This document shows positions 33,698 through 38,670 of a stretch of 64,000 bases of DNA, in pieces. How positions within the stretch are numbered: position 1 is the stretch's first letter; every line of letters starts with the position of its first letter. A program made the position numbers and the translations under genes. This DNA comes from a bacterium (GTDB lineage: Bacteria > JAGOBX01 > DAONJL01): assembly GCA_035405645.1 (NCBI GenBank), contig DAONJL010000010.1:2836-66835 (forward strand), given 5' to 3'. The notes under the pieces were generated by a model, which had not been told where the DNA came from, did no database searches, and was given only the letters and a program-made list of their open reading frames with translations.

Positions 33698-34594
33698 ATG
33701 AAATTACAAAAAGGTTTAAAAGTTGTTTTAAATTTATGGGATGGTGTCCGTTTTGATGCTATTTTTAAAGTTCATCAATGGATGGGTCTTCCTAATATTC
33801 ATTATTTAATTAAAAATGGAACTTTTTATACTAATGTTTTTACTCACACACCTGTTCTTACTCCAATGGCTGTTGGTAGAATTATGAAAGATAAACACGG
33901 TAAATTTATTTCTATGTCTTTACACGAAAAATCTAATGGGCAGATTAAATCCTGTTTCGTCGGTTATCCAGAAGAAGGTATTCATCGTGTGCCTGATTGG
34001 ATACCACATTGTAATTACATTGGCGATATTTTATATAATCGCAAAGAAGAGCAAAGAATTCTAAAATACGGTACCCCTGCTGAAAAAGGTAAATTGATGT
34101 TTCATCGTATTCAATATCCTGATAAATTGAGAATGGATGTCGGTTGTAAAATGATTCCTAAATATGATTTCACTTTTGTTTATTTTGTTGAACCTGATGA
34201 ATCAGCACATTATTGCCGTGACCATAAAAAACATATCTATCATTATGGTAGTCCTTATGTCCATGCTATTAAAAACTGTGATAATCTATTACAGCATCTT
34301 ATTAATACTCTTGAATGGTGTGCAAAAAATAATTATATTCTTATTGTCGTTGCTGATCACGGTATGACTGATGAAGGCAGACATAGTGTCGCTAAATGGA
34401 ATGATGAAGAAGTTATGCGCGTGCCATTAGTTATCTTTGGAAAAGGCATTAGAAAAAATTGGATTGAACGAACACATTATTATACTCACGATATTACTTC
34501 TGGTATTGTTGGTTTATTTAATGACACTACCAAAGGCACTATTTTTCAATGGGCTATGGAAAAATATGCTGATGGTAATTTGAATAAAGATTAA
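33698..34594 (+). CDS. Alkaline phosphatase superfamily (nucleotide pyrophosphatase/phosphodiesterase-like) protein, no signal peptide
   Basis: WDGVRFD, Thr in TPVLTP, EPDESAH, ADHG metal-binding motifs; AAGGAGG RBS. Confidence 0.75.
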   Translation: MKLQKGLKVVLNLWDGVRFDAIFKVHQWMGLPNIHYLIKNGTFYTNVFTHTPVLTPMAVGRIMKDKHGKFISMSLHEKSNGQIKSCFVGYPEEGIHRVPDWIPHCNYIGDILYNRKEEQRILKYGTPAEKGKLMFHRIQYPDKLRMDVGCKMIPKYDFTFVYFVEPDESAHYCRDHKKHIYHYGSPYVHAIKNCDNLLQHLINTLEWCAKNNYILIVVADHGMTDEGRHSVAKWNDEEVMRVPLVIFGKGIRKNWIERTHYYTHDITSGIVGLFNDTTKGTIFQWAMEKYADGNLNKD

Positions 34595-35895
34595 TTTATT
34601 ATTAATTCTTTTTCTATTTCGCTGATATTTAGTTCTCCTAAGTTTTTGTCGCTATTTTCTTTTAGATATGTTATAAATTTATTATATACTTCTTCTTTTA
34701 ATAAATTCTCTCTATCCTCTTTGTATTTACTTAATTTTTCGATTATTTCTTTTATTTTTAATGTCATCAGATTTCTCGTTGCTACTATCTGTGTTTCTTC
34801 TTCTTCTTTTAGTATTATATATTTTAATTTTTTCAGTATTATTAATACTTCTTTTATTATTAGTTCGGGTATTTTTATTTTTTCCGTTATTTTGGATAAA
34901 TATAATATCTTATCATTTTTAAATGCTTCGCTTAGATAATTTAAAATAATAATAGAAATAATTTCAATTTCTATAAAAGAAAGATTTTTTGTCTTTAAAC
35001 CAATTTTCATCGTATAACTTTTAAAATTTTGAAATACATAAGCGCACTCTGCGCCTAATAATATTATTATCCAGCATAAATAGAGCCAAATTAAAAATAA
35101 TGGGATTTGTGCAAATACTCCATATATTGCATTATATCTGACTGATATAATTGTAAAATATGTATAAAATATTTGATTTTGTATAAAGATAAATCCAGTT
35201 ATTATACTTGCTAATAATGCTGGTATTAATTTTACTTTTGTATTTGGTATATAGATATAAATAAATGTCATTGTGAATACTATTACAAGATACGGCATAA
35301 ATTCTGGTATTATTGATAGTATTTTTATTATAATTACAGGTAATAAAAACTTTAATTCATTTGTTATTATTAAACTCATACTTACTATAAATAATGTTGG
35401 TCCTATTATTGTTACACTTAAATAATCCGGTATTTTTTTTAATATATTTCTTGATTTCCTGACTCCCCATATTTCATTAAATGTTTTTTCTATATTACTC
35501 ATTGTCGAGATTATTGTCATTATTAAAAAAATAAATCCTATTATTCCTATACTACTAAAATCTGTATTATTTACATAATAATTTATTTTATTGGCTAATT
35601 TTTCGCCTTGTTCGCCTAATGGCATTAAAAATTTTTTTATTATTTCATTATATTTTAATTGAGATGCAAAGCCTTTTATTACTGAAAAGCCTATCGCTAA
35701 TAATGGTATTATTGCTAATAATGTAGTATATACTAATGCTGATGCTCTTAATATACATTTATCTTCACGAAATTTTTTTATTAATACTACAATGAATAGT
35801 ATTATATTCTTTATTATTCTTAATATTATTTTTTTTTCATCTTCTATTATTTTTTCATATAAATCAATTTTGATTATCTTTTTTATTTTTTCCAT
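34591..35895 (-). CDS. YihY/BrkB family inner-membrane protein with C-terminal winged-helix-like domain
   Basis: RASALVYTTLLAIIPLLA, EKTFNEIWGV, YNAIYGVFAQIPLFLIWLY..IILLGAE. Confidence 0.9.
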   Translation of the reverse strand: MEKIKKIIKIDLYEKIIEDEKKIILRIIKNIILFIVVLIKKFREDKCILRASALVYTTLLAIIPLLAIGFSVIKGFASQLKYNEIIKKFLMPLGEQGEKLANKINYYVNNTDFSSIGIIGFIFLIMTIISTMSNIEKTFNEIWGVRKSRNILKKIPDYLSVTIIGPTLFIVSMSLIITNELKFLLPVIIIKILSIIPEFMPYLVIVFTMTFIYIYIPNTKVKLIPALLASIITGFIFIQNQIFYTYFTIISVRYNAIYGVFAQIPLFLIWLYLCWIIILLGAECAYVFQNFKSYTMKIGLKTKNLSFIEIEIISIIILNYLSEAFKNDKILYLSKITEKIKIPELIIKEVLIILKKLKYIILKEEEETQIVATRNLMTLKIKEIIEKLSKYKEDRENLLKEEVYNKFITYLKENSDKNLGELNISEIEKELIIN

Positions 35896-35938
35896 ATTTT
35901 TTTGATATTTCTATTGTATCTATAATTTTTATACTATC

Positions 35939-36319
35939 TTTTTGCAAACTTTTCTCACACTTTTTTACCACAAATAAAATGAATAACACGATTAAACACT
36001 AATTACAAATAACACTACTTCTTTTACATCCCACTAAAAACTCTGCACTCTGTTCTATTCACCCTGCACTCTGCAATAAAACAATTTCAACCCTTTTCAG
36101 CGGTAGGTTTTTTGTGGCATTATATCCGCAGGTTTTCACCTGCGGATATATAAATTACAACAACTTCGTTCTTGTTTTTTTTGCTAACTTTTCAACCACT
36201 TTTTTGCCACTAATAAAACGGATAACACGAATAAACACTAATTACAAAAACTACTCCTTTTGCCTCGCACTAAAAACTCTGCACTCTGTGAACTCTCTAC
36301 TCTGCACTTTTCACTCTGC
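35939..36319. repeat. Composite intergenic repeat: about 113-bp direct repeat, 30-bp palindrome, second direct repeat, plus ACTCTGC heptamers
   Basis: Copies 35939-36053 and 36178-36289; TATATCCGCAGGT-TTTC-ACCTGCGGATATA at 36121-36150; heptamers at 36040, 36047, 36061, 36068, 36276, 36283, 36299, 36313. Confidence 0.92.
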
Positions 36320-36327
36320 ACTTCTAT

Positions 36328-38670
36328 TTATATCTCTTTTATTCCTTTCTCAATATTTTCTACTACTTTTACTTTAAACACTGCGACCATCTTCCCTAAA
36401 TCTTCGGATATTCGCTTCATATTCTGAACTTCATTATTTACTATTTCTACTGTCTTGGCATTATTCTGTGATGCTTTATTTATTTCTTCCATTGCTGTTG
36501 CTATCTGCTTGCTGCCATTTACCATTTCTACCATTGATTGTTTTATTTGCTCTGTTATATTATTTACATTATCCATTGCTTTTACTATTTCTTCTACGCC
36601 TTTTGCCTGTTCTACTGTTGCTGTTTGCATCTGGCTTGATAATGAGTTGACTAATTCAACCTGTTTCATTACCTGACTGCTTGCTTTGTTTTGCTCCTGT
36701 ATTGCTATTGTTACTTGCTCAAATAATTTTAACATTTCGTCTACTCTTCCTATTATATTCTTTAATGCTTCCGCTACATTCTGTGATGCTTTTACTCCTT
36801 CTTCTGCTAATATTGCTCCTTCTTCTGTTGATTTCACTGCTGCACTTACTTCATTTTGGATTCCTTTTATTATTCCGCCTATTTCTTTTGTTGCTTTTGC
36901 ACTTCGCTCTGCTAACTTTCGCACTTCATCTGCTACTACTGCAAACCCTTTCCCGTGCTCGCCAGCGCGCGCCGCTTCTATTGCTGCATTTAATGCTAAT
37001 AAATTTGTCTGTTCTGATATATCATCAATTACTTCTATTATATTTCCTATGTTTGCTGCACTTGTCCCTAAATTACTTATCACACTCACCAATCGTTCCA
37101 TACTGCTCTTTATCTTCTGCATTCCTTCACTCGATTTCTGCACTGCTTCATTGCCTGCTCGGGCGGCTTCCCCACTTGCTTTCGCTGCTTTATTTACTAC
37201 CTCTATATTATCTGATATTGCTGCTATATTACTCATCATTTCTTCTATTGCACTTGATGCCTGGTCTACTGCTTTCTTCACATCTGTTGCACTATCTGAT
37301 ATATGCTTTACTGCATTTGCCATCTGTGTTGATGATGATGTCGTCTGACTCACTGCTGCTGATTGGGTCTCTATGTTATTCCCTATTGATGATATTGTAT
37401 TATTAAACTCTTCGATTGATGCTGAGGTTTGTTCCACACTTGAGGCTGTCTCTTCTGATGCACTCGATACTTGTGCTATTTTCTCGCTCACTACTTCACT
37501 TGATTTTAATACATTCTCTGATGCTCCTTTTACTTTACCTATTAAATTACCTATCGTTGCTATTGTCTTATTTACATCGGCTGCTAATTCTCCTATTTCA
37601 TCTTTACCCATTACTTTACAATTTGCTGTCATATCACCAACTCCTACTTTCTGTATTACTTCTACTATATTCATTACTGGTTTTAATATTCCATTCGTTA
37701 TTTTTAGTGATAATACTATTGCTATTATTATTGCTATGATTGAAATTATTATTACTGTTAGTAATGCTGTGTGGAATGTATTATCTATATTTTCATCAAC
37801 TTGATTTACAATATTATCCATTTTTTCAAATGTCTTATTCTGTAACTCTCTGCTTTCTTTATTTATCAATTCACCCATTTCATTATATAATTTTATTATC
37901 TCTTCGCATTCATCACTCATTTTTTCAAATACTTCAAATACTTTATTCATATTTGGCATTGTTATTTTATTATATATTGCTAGTGCTGCTTCACTATTTC
38001 CTTTTTTTAATTCTTCTTGTATATTTGCTACACTATGATGAAAATTATTATGTGCTTCCATTACTTGCTGAATATTTTCCAATAATACTTTATTCTTTAT
38101 ATTCTTCCCTTTTTCATTCAGCCATTTACCAAATGCACAGATTGTCGGGTCTGTTCCTCCTTCAAATGTTTTTCTGGTTATTATTGATTCTAATACTTTT
38201 CGAAGTAACATATAATGTGCTAATTTTAGCTTTTCTATATCTGCTAACATTGCAAATGGATTTATTATTTCACGATTCACTATTTCTTCATTCATTTTTA
38301 ATATCTTATTATTTACTTCTGCCCATGATGTTACTGTTGTATTATATTCTTCTAATATTTTCTTTTCTTCTTTATCAGCTAATTTCTCAAACTGTTTCAT
38401 TTCTTCCTGATATTTTTTTCTAAACTCATAAAAATTTTCAACAGTTTTTATTCTTTCTTCTTTTGTCTGAAATATATTTGTTAATGTTCGTAACCTTATT
38501 GTTAATTATGAAATTAATGCTTCTGCCTTTAAACCATGCTCTATTTTAGGCACTGAATTGGAAATATTATTAAGCATAACAATACTTACAATTGCAATAA
38601 TTAATAAAAGGCCAAGCACACTTCCGAACCCGCCAAATAATTTTGTTTTTAATTTTAAATTTTCTAACAT
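36328..38670 (-). pseudogene. Methyl-accepting chemotaxis protein (TM-4HB/CZB-TM-HAMP-long MA domain) interrupted by an in-frame TAA
   Basis: AGGAGG-ATG at 38670 encodes TM1; TAA at 38506-38508 (codon 55); same frame continues into the 690-aa ORF with CZB motif and [27 protein letters not shown]. Confidence 0.85.

What the first reader, a model, noticed from the sequence alone, without database searches (positions are those of the whole stretch)
35939..36319. Direct repeat-palindrome-direct repeat element with heptamer arrays
Seen: two imperfect 112-115 bp direct repeats bracket a unique segment of about 125 bp carrying a perfect 13-bp GC-rich stem with a GAAA loop on the minus strand; each repeat ends in ACTCTGC heptamers and contains AACACGA-TAAACACTAAT. 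No ORF explains it. Known: REP/REPIN-like palindromes and short heptamer arrays mark non-autonomous mobile DNA and gene-shuffling sites. Inference: a scar or landing pad of an unrecognised mobile or cassette system, or a processed sRNA locus 3' of the MCP.
Basis: partly seen in the sequence, partly recalled or inferred. Interest (0 to 1): 0.65.

Follow-up and report, generated by a model that had tools for sequence, protein, structure and literature searches.

The report
Orphan three-hairpin REP-like mosaic repeat
The space between a chemoreceptor gene and a membrane-protein gene holds a decayed copy of a small hairpin-forming repeat that, in many other bacterial phyla, sits on both sides of one kind of single-strand DNA transposase gene reported to have no such partner; here it is flanked by locally duplicated pieces of a second repeat family.

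Summary
Window 35939-36075 and 36178-36320 are 85-88% identical direct repeats. They bracket a perfect 13-bp hairpin (36121-36150). The same 432 nt occurs in four other assemblies, so it is not an assembly artefact.

The "unique" middle is in fact the most widely repeated part. It is a ~95-nt module of three hairpins, with 9-11 copies in this genome, about 107 in a same-class relative, and 106 and 26 in Melioribacteraceae and Algoriphagus genomes. A covariance model built only from this genome's copies finds the module right next to homologues of a 147-aa Y1 (HUH) transposase. This is subclass 1.2 of Quentin et al. 2018, recorded there with no REP. With a second, cross-phylum model, 69 of 79 loci from about ten phyla carry the module. 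A copy points at the start codon in 50 of 74 loci, and an inverted copy starts a few nt after the stop in 53 of 77. Compensatory changes support 21 of 22 base pairs. Rfam has no family for it.

This genome's assembly lacks that transposase, so the window copy is probably an orphan. The flanking repeats resemble the interior of a second, TIR-bounded family tied to a TIRYT-type Y1 gene. Mobilisation by the Y1 enzyme is inferred, not shown.

The parts
36328..38400 (-). Upstream gene: 690-aa methyl-accepting chemotaxis protein. Its stop codon lies 7 nt before the repeat region.
   Evidence: ORF list and translation. The same gene is called in other assemblies.
36178..36320 (-). Direct repeat X1, read on the minus strand: GCAGAGT-type heptamer array plus TTTTTAGTG (36268-36321), ATT(C/A)GTG ~10-mer array (36208-36245), and block K1 GGCAAAAAAGTGGTTGAAAAGTTAGCAAAAAAAA (36175-36208).
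   Evidence: The same module types occur at C1:68k, C1:117k, C3:94k, C1:56k, C1:63k, C57, C64 and C28.
36081..36175 (-). Three-hairpin core module. hp1 36158-36174 (CAAGAAC-GAA-GTTGTTG, one G.G mismatch). Central hairpin 36121-36150 (13-bp perfect stem, GAAA loop). hp3 36089-36109 (AACC..GGGTT). A TTG(A/T)AAT-type motif follows hp1 and hp3.
   Evidence: R1 126.8 bits. R2 61.8 bits, E 2e-8, at C10:38916-39010, which equals window 36081-36175. Folding. Covariation.
35939..36075 (-). Direct repeat X2: heptamers plus TTTTTAGTG (36032-36076), 10-mer array (35969-36006), and K2 GGTAAAAAAGTGTGAGAAAAGTTTGCAAAAAG (35938-35969). No core follows it.
35896..35937 (-). 42-nt leader between X2 and the ATG of the downstream gene.
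34591..35895 (-). Downstream gene: 434-aa YihY/BrkB-family membrane protein (Pfam Virul_fac_BrkB).

Best explanation
The 432-nt gap is a mosaic of two families of small non-autonomous repeats. (1) The middle 95 nt (36081-36175, minus strand) is a copy of a three-hairpin module: a short hairpin with a GAA-type loop; then TTGAAT..(A/T)TA(G/A); then an 8-13-bp hairpin with a UGAAA-type loop; then a 25-35-nt variable linker; then a second short GAA-loop hairpin followed by TTGAA. This module is the conserved flank of subclass-1.2 Y1 (HUH) transposase genes. One copy points at the start codon and an inverted copy abuts the stop codon, which is a REPtron-like layout. In some genomes the module has spread to about 100 intergenic copies, often as inverted doublets. 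By analogy with TnpA-REP/REP and IS200/IS605 TnpA, the hairpins would form on single-stranded DNA, be bound by the Y1 enzyme, and be cut and rejoined next to the hairpin foot. That step is inferred. This genome's assembly has 9-11 diverged copies (about 70% identical to each other) and no subclass-1.2 gene. The window copy is therefore most likely an orphan that is no longer mobilised and is carried in the 3' region of the MCP transcript. (2) The two 112-140-nt direct repeats (X1, X2) are made of heptamer and 10-mer arrays. The same module types form the interior of a second family bounded by GGGGTCAGACGTCC and its diverged inverted copy (GACGCCTGTCCCC). The first of these is also the inverted repeat flanking this genome's 329-aa TIRYT-type Y1 gene. 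The X-core-X arrangement is a local secondary duplication, most plausibly slipped or unequal exchange between short-repeat arrays on either side of a fork-stalling hairpin. It is not a target-site duplication made when the core arrived.
For: The core is multi-copy in the window's own genome (nhmmer; model R1; model R2 gives 9 hits). It is homologous to elements in same-class genomes: G001 49 hits with R1 and 107 with R2, G002 10, G003 5. On G001 contig C210 a 147-aa Y1_Tnp gene (Pfam 78 bits) has tandem modules upstream and inverted modules downstream. Model R1, built only from this genome's nine copies, places 23 of its 24 hits with E<=0.01 within 600 nt of homologues of that gene, although only 24% of the searched bases lie there. 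With R2, 69 of 79 loci carry the module; a '+' copy lies <=150 nt upstream in 50 of 74 loci, a '-' copy <=150 nt downstream in 53 of 77 (median about 6-8 nt), and both in 38. Among loci not used for training, 43 of 53 are hit. Of the 79 homologues, 75 carry the subclass-1.2 motif Y...Q..HH (definition from PMC6006769). Structure: 87% of cells are paired against 70.5% in shuffles, covariation score 0.453 against 0.163 (0 of 500 shuffles as high), and slid controls give <=0.078. RNAalifold on an independent MAFFT alignment gives three hairpins with compensatory changes in 21 of 22 pairs. The module is dispersed in whole genomes of other phyla: 106, 26, 7 and 2 copies. Specificity: 36 of 37 unrelated genomes have no hit. 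The subclass-1.2 gene is absent from G000, G002 and G003. X family and the TIRtron: and PMC3733652. Local duplications: within-locus identity is 84-99% over 45-171 nt, against 70-87% over mostly shorter stretches between most loci (C1:68k and C57 share 92% over 48 nt). The duplicated boundaries differ from locus to locus, and the youngest duplication (99%, C1:68k) surrounds the most decayed core (45.6 bits).
Against: No binding, cleavage or transposition was tested, and no RNA or DNA read data could be used. The family's 5' foot motif is (A/T)TA(G/A), and ATAT in the window copy, not the canonical REP GT[AG]G. In G001, copies inspected lie inside a 350-420-bp element with GAGCGC... terminal inverted repeats; two of the three with both ends located show exact 9-bp target duplications. 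Amplification there may therefore be driven by a DDE-type transposase rather than the Y1 enzyme. G000, G002 and G003 keep modules without the gene, and G005 and G007 have distant homologues without the module, so the link is not one-to-one. The assembly is only 90.7% complete and repeats break contigs, so the gene could have been missed. G.U pairs outnumber A.C mismatches 143 to 51 on the modelled strand. This fits RNA as well as single-stranded DNA, and it is biased by how the model was built. The mechanism proposed for the X duplication is conjecture.
Confidence: 0.65

Rival explanations
1. The three-hairpin module works mainly as RNA. It would be a 3'-UTR stabiliser or attenuator, or a family of small RNAs. 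Here it would be transcribed by read-through from the MCP gene and would protect that mRNA or limit read-through into yihY.
For: 7 of 10 cores in this genome lie downstream of, and co-directional with, the preceding gene. G.U pairs outnumber A.C mismatches 143 to 51 on the modelled strand. In four loci the core is followed by a further hairpin and a T-run, and in five a TATAAT-like stretch lies about 90 nt upstream. REPs in other bacteria are known to act as RNA elements (PMC3733652 abstract).
Against: The window copy has no predicted promoter or terminator. The promoter-like matches elsewhere are barely above the shuffle background (6-8 found against 3.6-4.1 expected). The symmetric inverted placement on both sides of the Y1 gene argues for a DNA-level role. 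No Rfam family matches. This reading is not exclusive of the best explanation.
Confidence: 0.17
2. The module is passive cargo of conventional TIR/TSD MITEs moved by DDE transposases. Its position next to Y1 genes would only reflect where such MITEs originate or insert.
For: In G001 the near-identical copies sit inside a 350-420-bp element with GAGCGC terminal inverted repeats, and two of the three copies with both ends located show exact 9-bp direct duplications (CTCAAGTTT, CGCTTGTTC).
Against: It does not explain the precise, oriented abutment to the start and stop codons of subclass-1.2 genes in about ten phyla. It also does not explain the conservation of structure through compensatory changes. 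The window copy and the other copies in this genome have no such terminal repeats or duplications.
Confidence: 0.1
3. The repeats are a regulatory region for yihY. The helically phased ATT(C/A)GTG 10-mers would be binding sites for a DNA-binding protein, and the hairpin would be an operator or insulator.
For: The 10-mers repeat at about 10-nt spacing. TTATTCGTG occurs 77 times in the genome against 31 expected. X2 ends 42 nt before the yihY start codon.
Against: The same arrays occur beside unrelated genes (flagellar, hydrogenase, porin and others). No sigma-70-like promoter is associated with them. No DNA-binding domain could be tied to them.
Confidence: 0.05

Closest known systems
REP / REPIN / BIME elements with their RAYT (TnpA-REP) genes (REPtrons; E. 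coli, Pseudomonas; Nunvar 2010, Bertels & Rainey 2011, Ton-Hoang 2012, Quentin 2018)
   Same: Short intergenic hairpin-forming repeats, multi-copy and often downstream of genes. Inverted copies flank a low-copy Y1/HUH gene. Inverted doublets occur in some genomes. The structure is kept by compensatory change. The repeats are mixed with other short motifs into mosaics, as in BIMEs.
   Different: The unit is about 93 nt with three hairpins rather than one 20-40-nt palindrome. The foot motif is (A/T)TA(G/A) rather than GT[AG]G. The partner enzyme is subclass 1.2 (IS200-like, Y...Q..HH), which Quentin et al. 2018 list as 'REP: no'. In the window's genome the partner gene is missing and the copies are singletons.
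IS200/IS605 ends (IS608, ISDra2): subterminal hairpins recognised by TnpA on single-stranded DNA
   Same: The closest enzyme relatives are here: subclass 1.2 sits next to subclass 1.1. Hairpins adjoin the gene, and a short conserved sequence lies at the hairpin foot.
   Different: IS200/IS605 left and right ends lie on the same strand and are not inverted copies of each other. Those elements are multi-copy as whole units and often carry tnpB. Here the flanks are inverted, the gene is present in one or two copies, and only the flanks disperse.
TIRtron / TIRYT (Di Nocera et al. 2013; subclass 2.1 of Quentin 2018)
   Same: This genome's 329-aa Y1 gene (contig C34) has the YIHLNP motif. It is flanked by inverted GGGGTCAGACGTCC..., which fits the published GGGGWSAS consensus. 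That repeat is dispersed in 15 copies.
   Different: This applies to the flanking-repeat family (X), not to the hairpin core. The window region itself contains neither terminal repeat, only interior-type modules.
MITEs (TIR plus TSD, DDE-transposase dependent)
   Same: The G001 composite carrying the module has terminal inverted repeats, and two of three copies show exact 9-bp duplications. The g...V units in this genome are TIR-bounded and 170-560 nt long.
   Different: The window copy has neither terminal repeats nor a short target duplication. Its 112-140-nt flanking repeats are too long and too variable between loci.

Membership tests
REP/REPIN (RAYT-associated) | Dispersed, multi-copy, mostly intergenic | tested here: met
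   9-11 copies in the window's own genome, all in intergenic gaps. 107, 106 and 26 copies in G001, a Melioribacteraceae genome and an Algoriphagus genome.
REP/REPIN (RAYT-associated) | Imperfect palindrome kept by selection (compensatory changes) | tested here: met
   26 of 27 modelled pairs show double changes and the covariation score is 0.453 against 0.163 in shuffles. 21 of 22 pairs show compensatory changes on an independent alignment.
REP/REPIN (RAYT-associated) | Conserved GT[AG]G tetranucleotide at the 5' foot of the hairpin | tested here: not met
   The family consensus before the central hairpin is AATA(G/A)CC, i.e. (A/T)TA(G/A). The window copy has ATAT.
REP/REPIN (RAYT-associated) | Inverted copies flank a low-copy Y1 transposase gene (REPtron) | tested here: met
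   Met in relatives: 50 of 74 loci upstream, 53 of 77 downstream, 38 both, and G001 contig C210. Not met in the window's own genome, which lacks the gene.
REP/REPIN (RAYT-associated) | The partner enzyme is a RAYT (TnpA-REP) in the strict sense | tested here: not met
   The NCBIfam REP_Tyr_transpos model scores 24 bits against a cut-off of 80, while the IS200 model scores 60.9 against a cut-off of 55. The motifs fit subclass 1.2, not the RAYT subclasses 2.x.
REP/REPIN (RAYT-associated) | Cleavage and rejoining of the repeat by the enzyme on single-stranded DNA | not testable with these tools
   Needs biochemistry.
BIME (mosaic element) | REP-type hairpins combined with other conserved short motifs in variable order | tested here: met
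   The core is combined with K, 10-mer, heptamer, T-hairpin, g and V modules in different orders at 11 loci.
IS200/IS605 insertion sequence | Whole unit multi-copy; left and right end hairpins on one strand; often tnpB | tested here: not met
   The flanks are in inverted orientation. There are two genes in G001 and none in G000. No tnpB was seen next to the gene on L039.
MITE (TIR plus TSD) | Terminal inverted repeats and a short target-site duplication at the copy's ends | tested here: not met
   The window copy has none. The G001 composite has terminal repeats, and two of three copies show exact 9-bp duplications.
TIRtron/TIRYT repeat family (for X1/X2) | GGGGWSAS-type terminal repeat shared with the flanks of a TIRYT gene | tested here: inconclusive
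   The motif flanks the C34 gene and bounds g...V units whose interior has the same heptamer and 10-mer modules. The window's X1 and X2 carry no terminal repeat, and similarity to those interiors is only 74-80% over 58-66 nt.
Small RNA gene / Rfam family | Match to a curated family, or own promoter and terminator | tested here: not met
   No Rfam match at E<=10 in the window region, nor in 8 own-genome loci and 10 foreign loci. No promoter or terminator is predicted.

The most novel reading that the evidence does not exclude
The three-hairpin module is a previously undescribed, cross-phylum class of REP/REPIN-like element. Its cognate enzyme would be the subclass-1.2 Y1 transposase, which was reported to have neither IS ends nor REPs. 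That would turn an 'orphan' HUH subclass into a second, independent REPtron-type system with a composite three-hairpin substrate. It can spread to about 100 copies per genome and outlive its enzyme as orphan copies, as in this window. A bolder add-on: the recurrent long direct duplications around orphan copies are a by-product of how these hairpins are processed at replication forks.
Probability: 0.45. Interest if true: 0.7.

Novelty: new variant of a known kind. Interest (0 to 1): 0.55.

Why it matters
How REP-type repeats spread, and why bacteria keep single-copy 'domesticated' Y1 transposases, are still open questions. Only a few enzyme/repeat pairs, mostly proteobacterial, can be studied. 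If the link holds, subclass 1.2 gains a defined DNA partner. That subclass is common in Bacteroidota and was seen here in about ten phyla. The partner has a richer architecture: two GAA-loop mini-hairpins framing a longer hairpin, with a repeated TTGAA motif. This gives a ready in-vitro test system and a covariance model for annotating hundreds of currently unexplained intergenic repeats, some of which break metagenome assemblies. For this window the practical message is modest. The odd intergenic structure is repeat debris, not a new gene or cassette system, though its strong hairpin may still affect the MCP and yihY transcripts.

Tried and rejected
1. A sigma-54 or sigma-70 promoter reading of GCCAGAAAAGTTTGCAAAAA. 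The spacing does not fit TGGCAC-N5-TTGCA, and the scan finds no promoter there. The organism's clear promoters are ordinary TTGACA-17-TATAAT.

2. A long-range helix AAATTCAA/TTGAATTT enclosing the central hairpin. It is only weakly supported (45 of 82 sequences unpaired at one pair, few double changes) and was dropped. The two strands are better read as a repeated single-stranded TTGAAT motif.

3. A known RNA family. There are no Rfam hits. A weak Flavo-1 hit (32.8 bits against a cut-off of 42) lies beside the module in one foreign locus, not on it.

4. Empty-site alleles. Four other assemblies carry the same locus, but all 432 nt are identical, so this is uninformative.

5. A DnaA-domain-IV-like HTH in the C34 protein that might bind the TTATTCGTG 9-mers. 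Pfam finds nothing and PDB gives only a weak, wrong-domain DnaA hit (E 0.14). The idea is not supported.

6. BLAST of the X2/leader region. It gave about 160 weak hits that are AT-rich low-complexity noise.

7. Target-site duplication as the origin of X-core-X. This was rejected because the age of the duplication does not track core decay and the boundaries differ between loci.

8. Campbell-type integration of a circle. It predicts between-locus-level identity of the two X copies, whereas 95-99% is seen at three loci.

9. Integron attC or CRISPR readings. No cargo ORFs, no regular spacing and no associated genes were seen; these readings were not pursued further.

10. Read mapping and RNA-seq.

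11. Earlier scan notes contained nothing on this element.

Full report
**What is there.** The finding lies in the 432-nt gap between two minus-strand genes. Upstream is a 690-aa chemoreceptor (36328-38400, downstream of cheR and cheB). Downstream is a 434-aa YihY/BrkB-type membrane protein (34591-35895).

Read on the minus strand, the gap has this order:
- X1 (36320-36178): GCAGAGT-type heptamers, TTTTTAGTG, a run of ATT(C/A)GTG 10-mers, and a block K (GGCAAAAAAG..GAAAAGTTAGCAAAAAAAA).
- A 95-nt core (36175-36081).
- X2 (36075-35939): the same order as X1, ending in TTTGCAAAAAG.
- A 42-nt leader, then the ATG.

X1 and X2 are 85-88% identical over 112-115 nt. The core holds a perfect 13-bp hairpin with a GAAA loop (36121-36150) and two weaker hairpins. 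It folds far better than shuffled sequence, z = -5.9 as DNA or RNA. The same 432 nt are present without a single difference in two JGI metagenome records, one ENA assembly and one Logan assembly. The duplication is therefore not an assembly artefact.

**The middle is the real repeat.** The window lies in a 2.97-Mb, 24.5% G+C, 141-contig genome. Searches of that genome with the three parts showed the 'unique' middle to be the most repeated piece, with about ten further copies on seven other contigs, next to unrelated genes (flagellar hook-associated proteins, a hydrogenase, a porin-like protein and others). The copies are about 70% identical. They keep three hairpins through compensatory changes, for example AACAAC-GAA-GTTGTT against AACCAC-GAA-GTGGTT. 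I built a covariance model (R1) from the nine best own-genome copies. It recovers 11 clear copies in this genome.

The lineage is isolated: only three genomes share its class. R1 finds 49 copies in one of them (G001, 'bacterium isolate CTOTU18567') and 2-3 in each of the other two. It finds none in 37 unrelated genomes.

**Link to a Y1 transposase.** On G001 contig C210 several modules lie in tandem upstream of a 147-aa gene, and inverted modules lie downstream of it. The protein is a Y1/HUH transposase: Pfam Y1_Tnp 78 bits, NCBIfam IS200 60.9 bits, and the RAYT model only 24 bits against a cut-off of 80. Its motifs (EDHIH, GWQ, YIKNQEEHH) match subclass 1.2 of Quentin, Siguier, Chandler and Fichant 2018 (PMC6006769). 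[quoted passage not shown]

I fetched the 80 best loci encoding relatives of this protein from one-genome-per-species contigs. They are 42-60% identical and come from Bacteroidota, Neomarinimicrobiota, Nitrospirales, Verrucomicrobiota, Planctomycetota, Chlorobiota, Calditrichaceae, Lentisphaerae, Acidobacteriota and others. Of the 79 non-self loci, 75 have the Y...Q..HH signature.

R1 had seen only the window's genome. Even so, 23 of its 24 hits with E<=0.01 fall within 600 nt of the gene, where only 24% of the bases lie. The sequences show the same plan everywhere:
- a 5-7-bp hairpin with a (C)GAA(G) or UGAAA loop;
- UGAAU.UGAAUA;
- an 8-9-bp hairpin (A/G)CCNNGGG-UGAAA-CCNNGG(U);
- 25-35 variable nt;
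- a second hairpin AACCC-UGAAA-GGGUU followed by GAA.

**Structure statistics.** On 82 model-aligned copies, 87% of cells are paired against 70.5% in column shuffles. Double changes occur in 26 of 27 pairs. The covariation score is 0.453 against 0.163 (0 of 500 shuffles as high), and all slid controls are <=0.078. That alignment is fitted to the model, so I repeated the test on a plain MAFFT alignment of 39 copies from many phyla. RNAalifold predicts the same three hairpins, with compensatory changes in 21 of 22 pairs. The long-range helix I had first drawn is poorly supported and was dropped. G.U pairs outnumber A.C mismatches 143 to 51 on the modelled strand. This says which strand matters, but not whether it acts as RNA or as single-stranded DNA.

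**Second model and census.** I built a 93-position model (R2) from the cross-phylum alignment. It finds 9 copies in this genome, 107 in G001, 10 in G002 and 5 in G003.

In the 79 transposase loci it gives 228 hits at E<=0.01:
- 69 loci have at least one hit.
- A copy in the gene's orientation ends <=150 nt before the start codon in 50 of 74 loci with enough flank.
- An inverted copy starts <=150 nt after the stop in 53 of 77 loci, typically 2-14 nt after it.
- 38 loci have both.
- Among loci not used for training, 43 of 53 are hit.
- The most divergent homologues (42-45% identity) have none.

Whole genomes show that the module is dispersed well beyond the gene. There are 106 copies, mostly inverted doublets about 150 nt apart, in a complete Melioribacteraceae chromosome. 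There are 26 in Algoriphagus yeomjeoni DEN5, 7 in a Draconibacterium and 2 in an Ancylomarina. In the 37 unrelated control genomes R2 hits only one, a three-copy cluster on a single contig. Rfam 15 has no family for the module. Literature searches found no later description of subclass-1.2 flanks.

**Status in this genome.** Neither tblastn, nor a six-frame search with the G001 protein, nor a Pfam Y1_Tnp scan finds a subclass-1.2 gene in this genome, G002 or G003. G001 has two. This genome's copies are diverged, several have broken stems, and none forms an inverted doublet. They therefore look like orphans. The caveat is a 90.7%-complete assembly, in which repeat-flanked genes are easily lost.

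The copy-number contrast (107 against 5-10) would fit enzyme-driven spread, but there is a complication. Three G001 copies had both element ends located, and they sit inside a 350-420-bp composite with GAGCGC terminal inverted repeats. Two of the three show exact 9-bp direct duplications of the target and the third an imperfect match. That is the signature of a DDE-type MITE. At least part of that expansion may not be the Y1 enzyme's work.

**The flanking direct repeats.** The only Y1-type gene in this genome (contig C34, 329 aa, YIHLNPVKA) is flanked by inverted copies of GGGGTCAGACGTCCTTAAAGTCC. This fits the GGGGWSAS repeats of 'TIRtrons' (Di Nocera et al. 2013; subclass 2.1 in Quentin 2018). 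The motif has 15 near-identical copies. Seven of them are followed by a T-run, heptamers and 10-mers like those of X.

A second motif, GACGCCTGTCCCCAATAA (20 copies), is its diverged inverted counterpart: GGGGACAGGCGTC against GGGGTCAGACGTC, 11 of 13 identical. It lies 174-563 nt downstream of the first motif at six loci. This defines a small TIR-bounded family whose interior carries the X-type modules. The window's X1 and X2 contain neither terminal motif, and their similarity to those interiors is moderate (74-80% over 58-66 nt). The assignment is therefore likely but not proven.

**Why X-core-X.** Five of the 11 loci in this genome show direct repeats on both sides of the core. Within a locus the two copies are 84-99% identical over 45-171 nt. 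Between most loci, identity is 70-87% over mostly shorter stretches. The duplicated segment differs each time: at C1:56k it even includes the last 8 nt of the hydrogenase gene, and at C57 it covers only the 10-mers. The freshest duplication (99%, C1:68k) surrounds the most decayed core (45.6 bits), while the best core (79.6 bits, C57) has 98% repeats.

This pattern argues against a duplication made at insertion. It also argues against import of a foreign circle. It favours repeated local events. My best guess is slipped or unequal exchange between the short-repeat arrays that flank a replication-stalling hairpin. This is inference; I could not test it.

**How it most likely works.**
- Shown: homology of the window core to a structured module that brackets subclass-1.2 Y1 genes across phyla and disperses in genomes.
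- Inferred from IS608/ISDra2 and E. coli TnpA-REP: the hairpins form on single-stranded DNA at the replication fork, the enzyme binds them, and it cuts beside a short conserved sequence. The candidates are the (A/T)TA(G/A) foot of the central hairpin and the TTGAA that follows both small hairpins.
- From my own knowledge, not tested here: C(GAA)G loops, frequent in the first hairpin, are known to give unusually stable DNA mini-hairpins, which would suit a single-stranded DNA substrate.
- In the window, the copy is probably inert DNA. It is transcribed with the MCP gene, and its 13-bp stem may stabilise that mRNA or damp read-through into yihY.

**Verdict.** The window element itself is an ordinary orphan repeat. 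The wider pattern it led to appears to be undescribed: a conserved three-hairpin partner for a Y1 subclass reported to have none. I rate that as a new variant of a known kind.

Noticed in passing
G000 contig C34:22816-24018 (outside the window; locus L045): A 329-aa TIRYT-type Y1 gene (YIHLNPVKA). It is flanked by inverted GGGGTCAGACGTCCTTAAAGTCC, and a third copy lies 700 nt upstream. The motif has 15 near-identical copies genome-wide. G001 (L052) and G002 (L044) homologues each have their own short inverted flanks.
   Followed up: partly
G000 C1:56702-56724: The GGGGTCAGACG motif overlaps the 3' end of the hydrogenase large-subunit gene and supplies its stop codon (..GAG AGG GTC AGA CGT CCT TAA).
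   Followed up: no
G000 C1:56486, C1:62963, C3:97029, C22:2208, C57:4657 and others: The GACGCCTGTCCCCAATAA motif is preceded by a conserved TATAAT-like box, GAGGTG and a GTG/ATG start. This gives short variable ORFs (MTPVPNN...). Conservation is at the DNA level, so it is probably not a peptide gene.
   Followed up: partly
G000 C1:68690-68800 versus C1:63100-63200: A fragment encoding the last ~20 residues of an MCP-like protein (..EVKKVVDELNKGIGQFKIE*), together with the following X module, is duplicated 5 kb away. X modules follow MCP-type 3' ends three times, counting the window.
   Followed up: no
G000 C1:118060-118150 and C3:97440-97490: An unusually G+C-rich stretch with repeated GATTAAAAT(A)TTC lies just downstream of two core loci. 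It has no Rfam match and its identity is unknown.
   Followed up: no
G001 loci L010, L027, L031 (and similar copies in L023, L029, L032, L034, L036): A 350-420-bp MITE-like composite with GAGCGC... terminal inverted repeats, carrying an inverted doublet of the three-hairpin module. L010 and L027 show exact 9-bp target duplications (CTCAAGTTT, CGCTTGTTC); L031 shows only an imperfect match.
   Followed up: partly
G001 contig C229 (L046:1000-2200): A second subclass-1.2-like gene (44% identical) is flanked by a different family of GC-rich hairpins (..GCCCGCTTCGCGGGC.., CAGCCCTTTCAGGGC) rather than the R2 module. This suggests enzyme and repeat co-diverge.
   Followed up: no
L123:1867-2307, L104, L114: Three of the 79 subclass-1.2 homologues carry an in-frame stop. 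In L123 it replaces the Q of the catalytic Y...Q..HH motif. These are decaying genes still flanked by intact modules.
   Followed up: no
L123:1488-1575 (minus): A weak Flavo-1 RNA match (32.8 bits, gathering cut-off 42) lies about 130 nt from a module. It is a separate AGCGGAUAGC-repeat hairpin.
   Followed up: no
G000 C3:94047-97309: Two core copies in divergent orientation bracket a 3-kb segment with an HTH-type 207-aa gene and a porin-like 409-aa gene. This is a possible composite unit.
   Followed up: no
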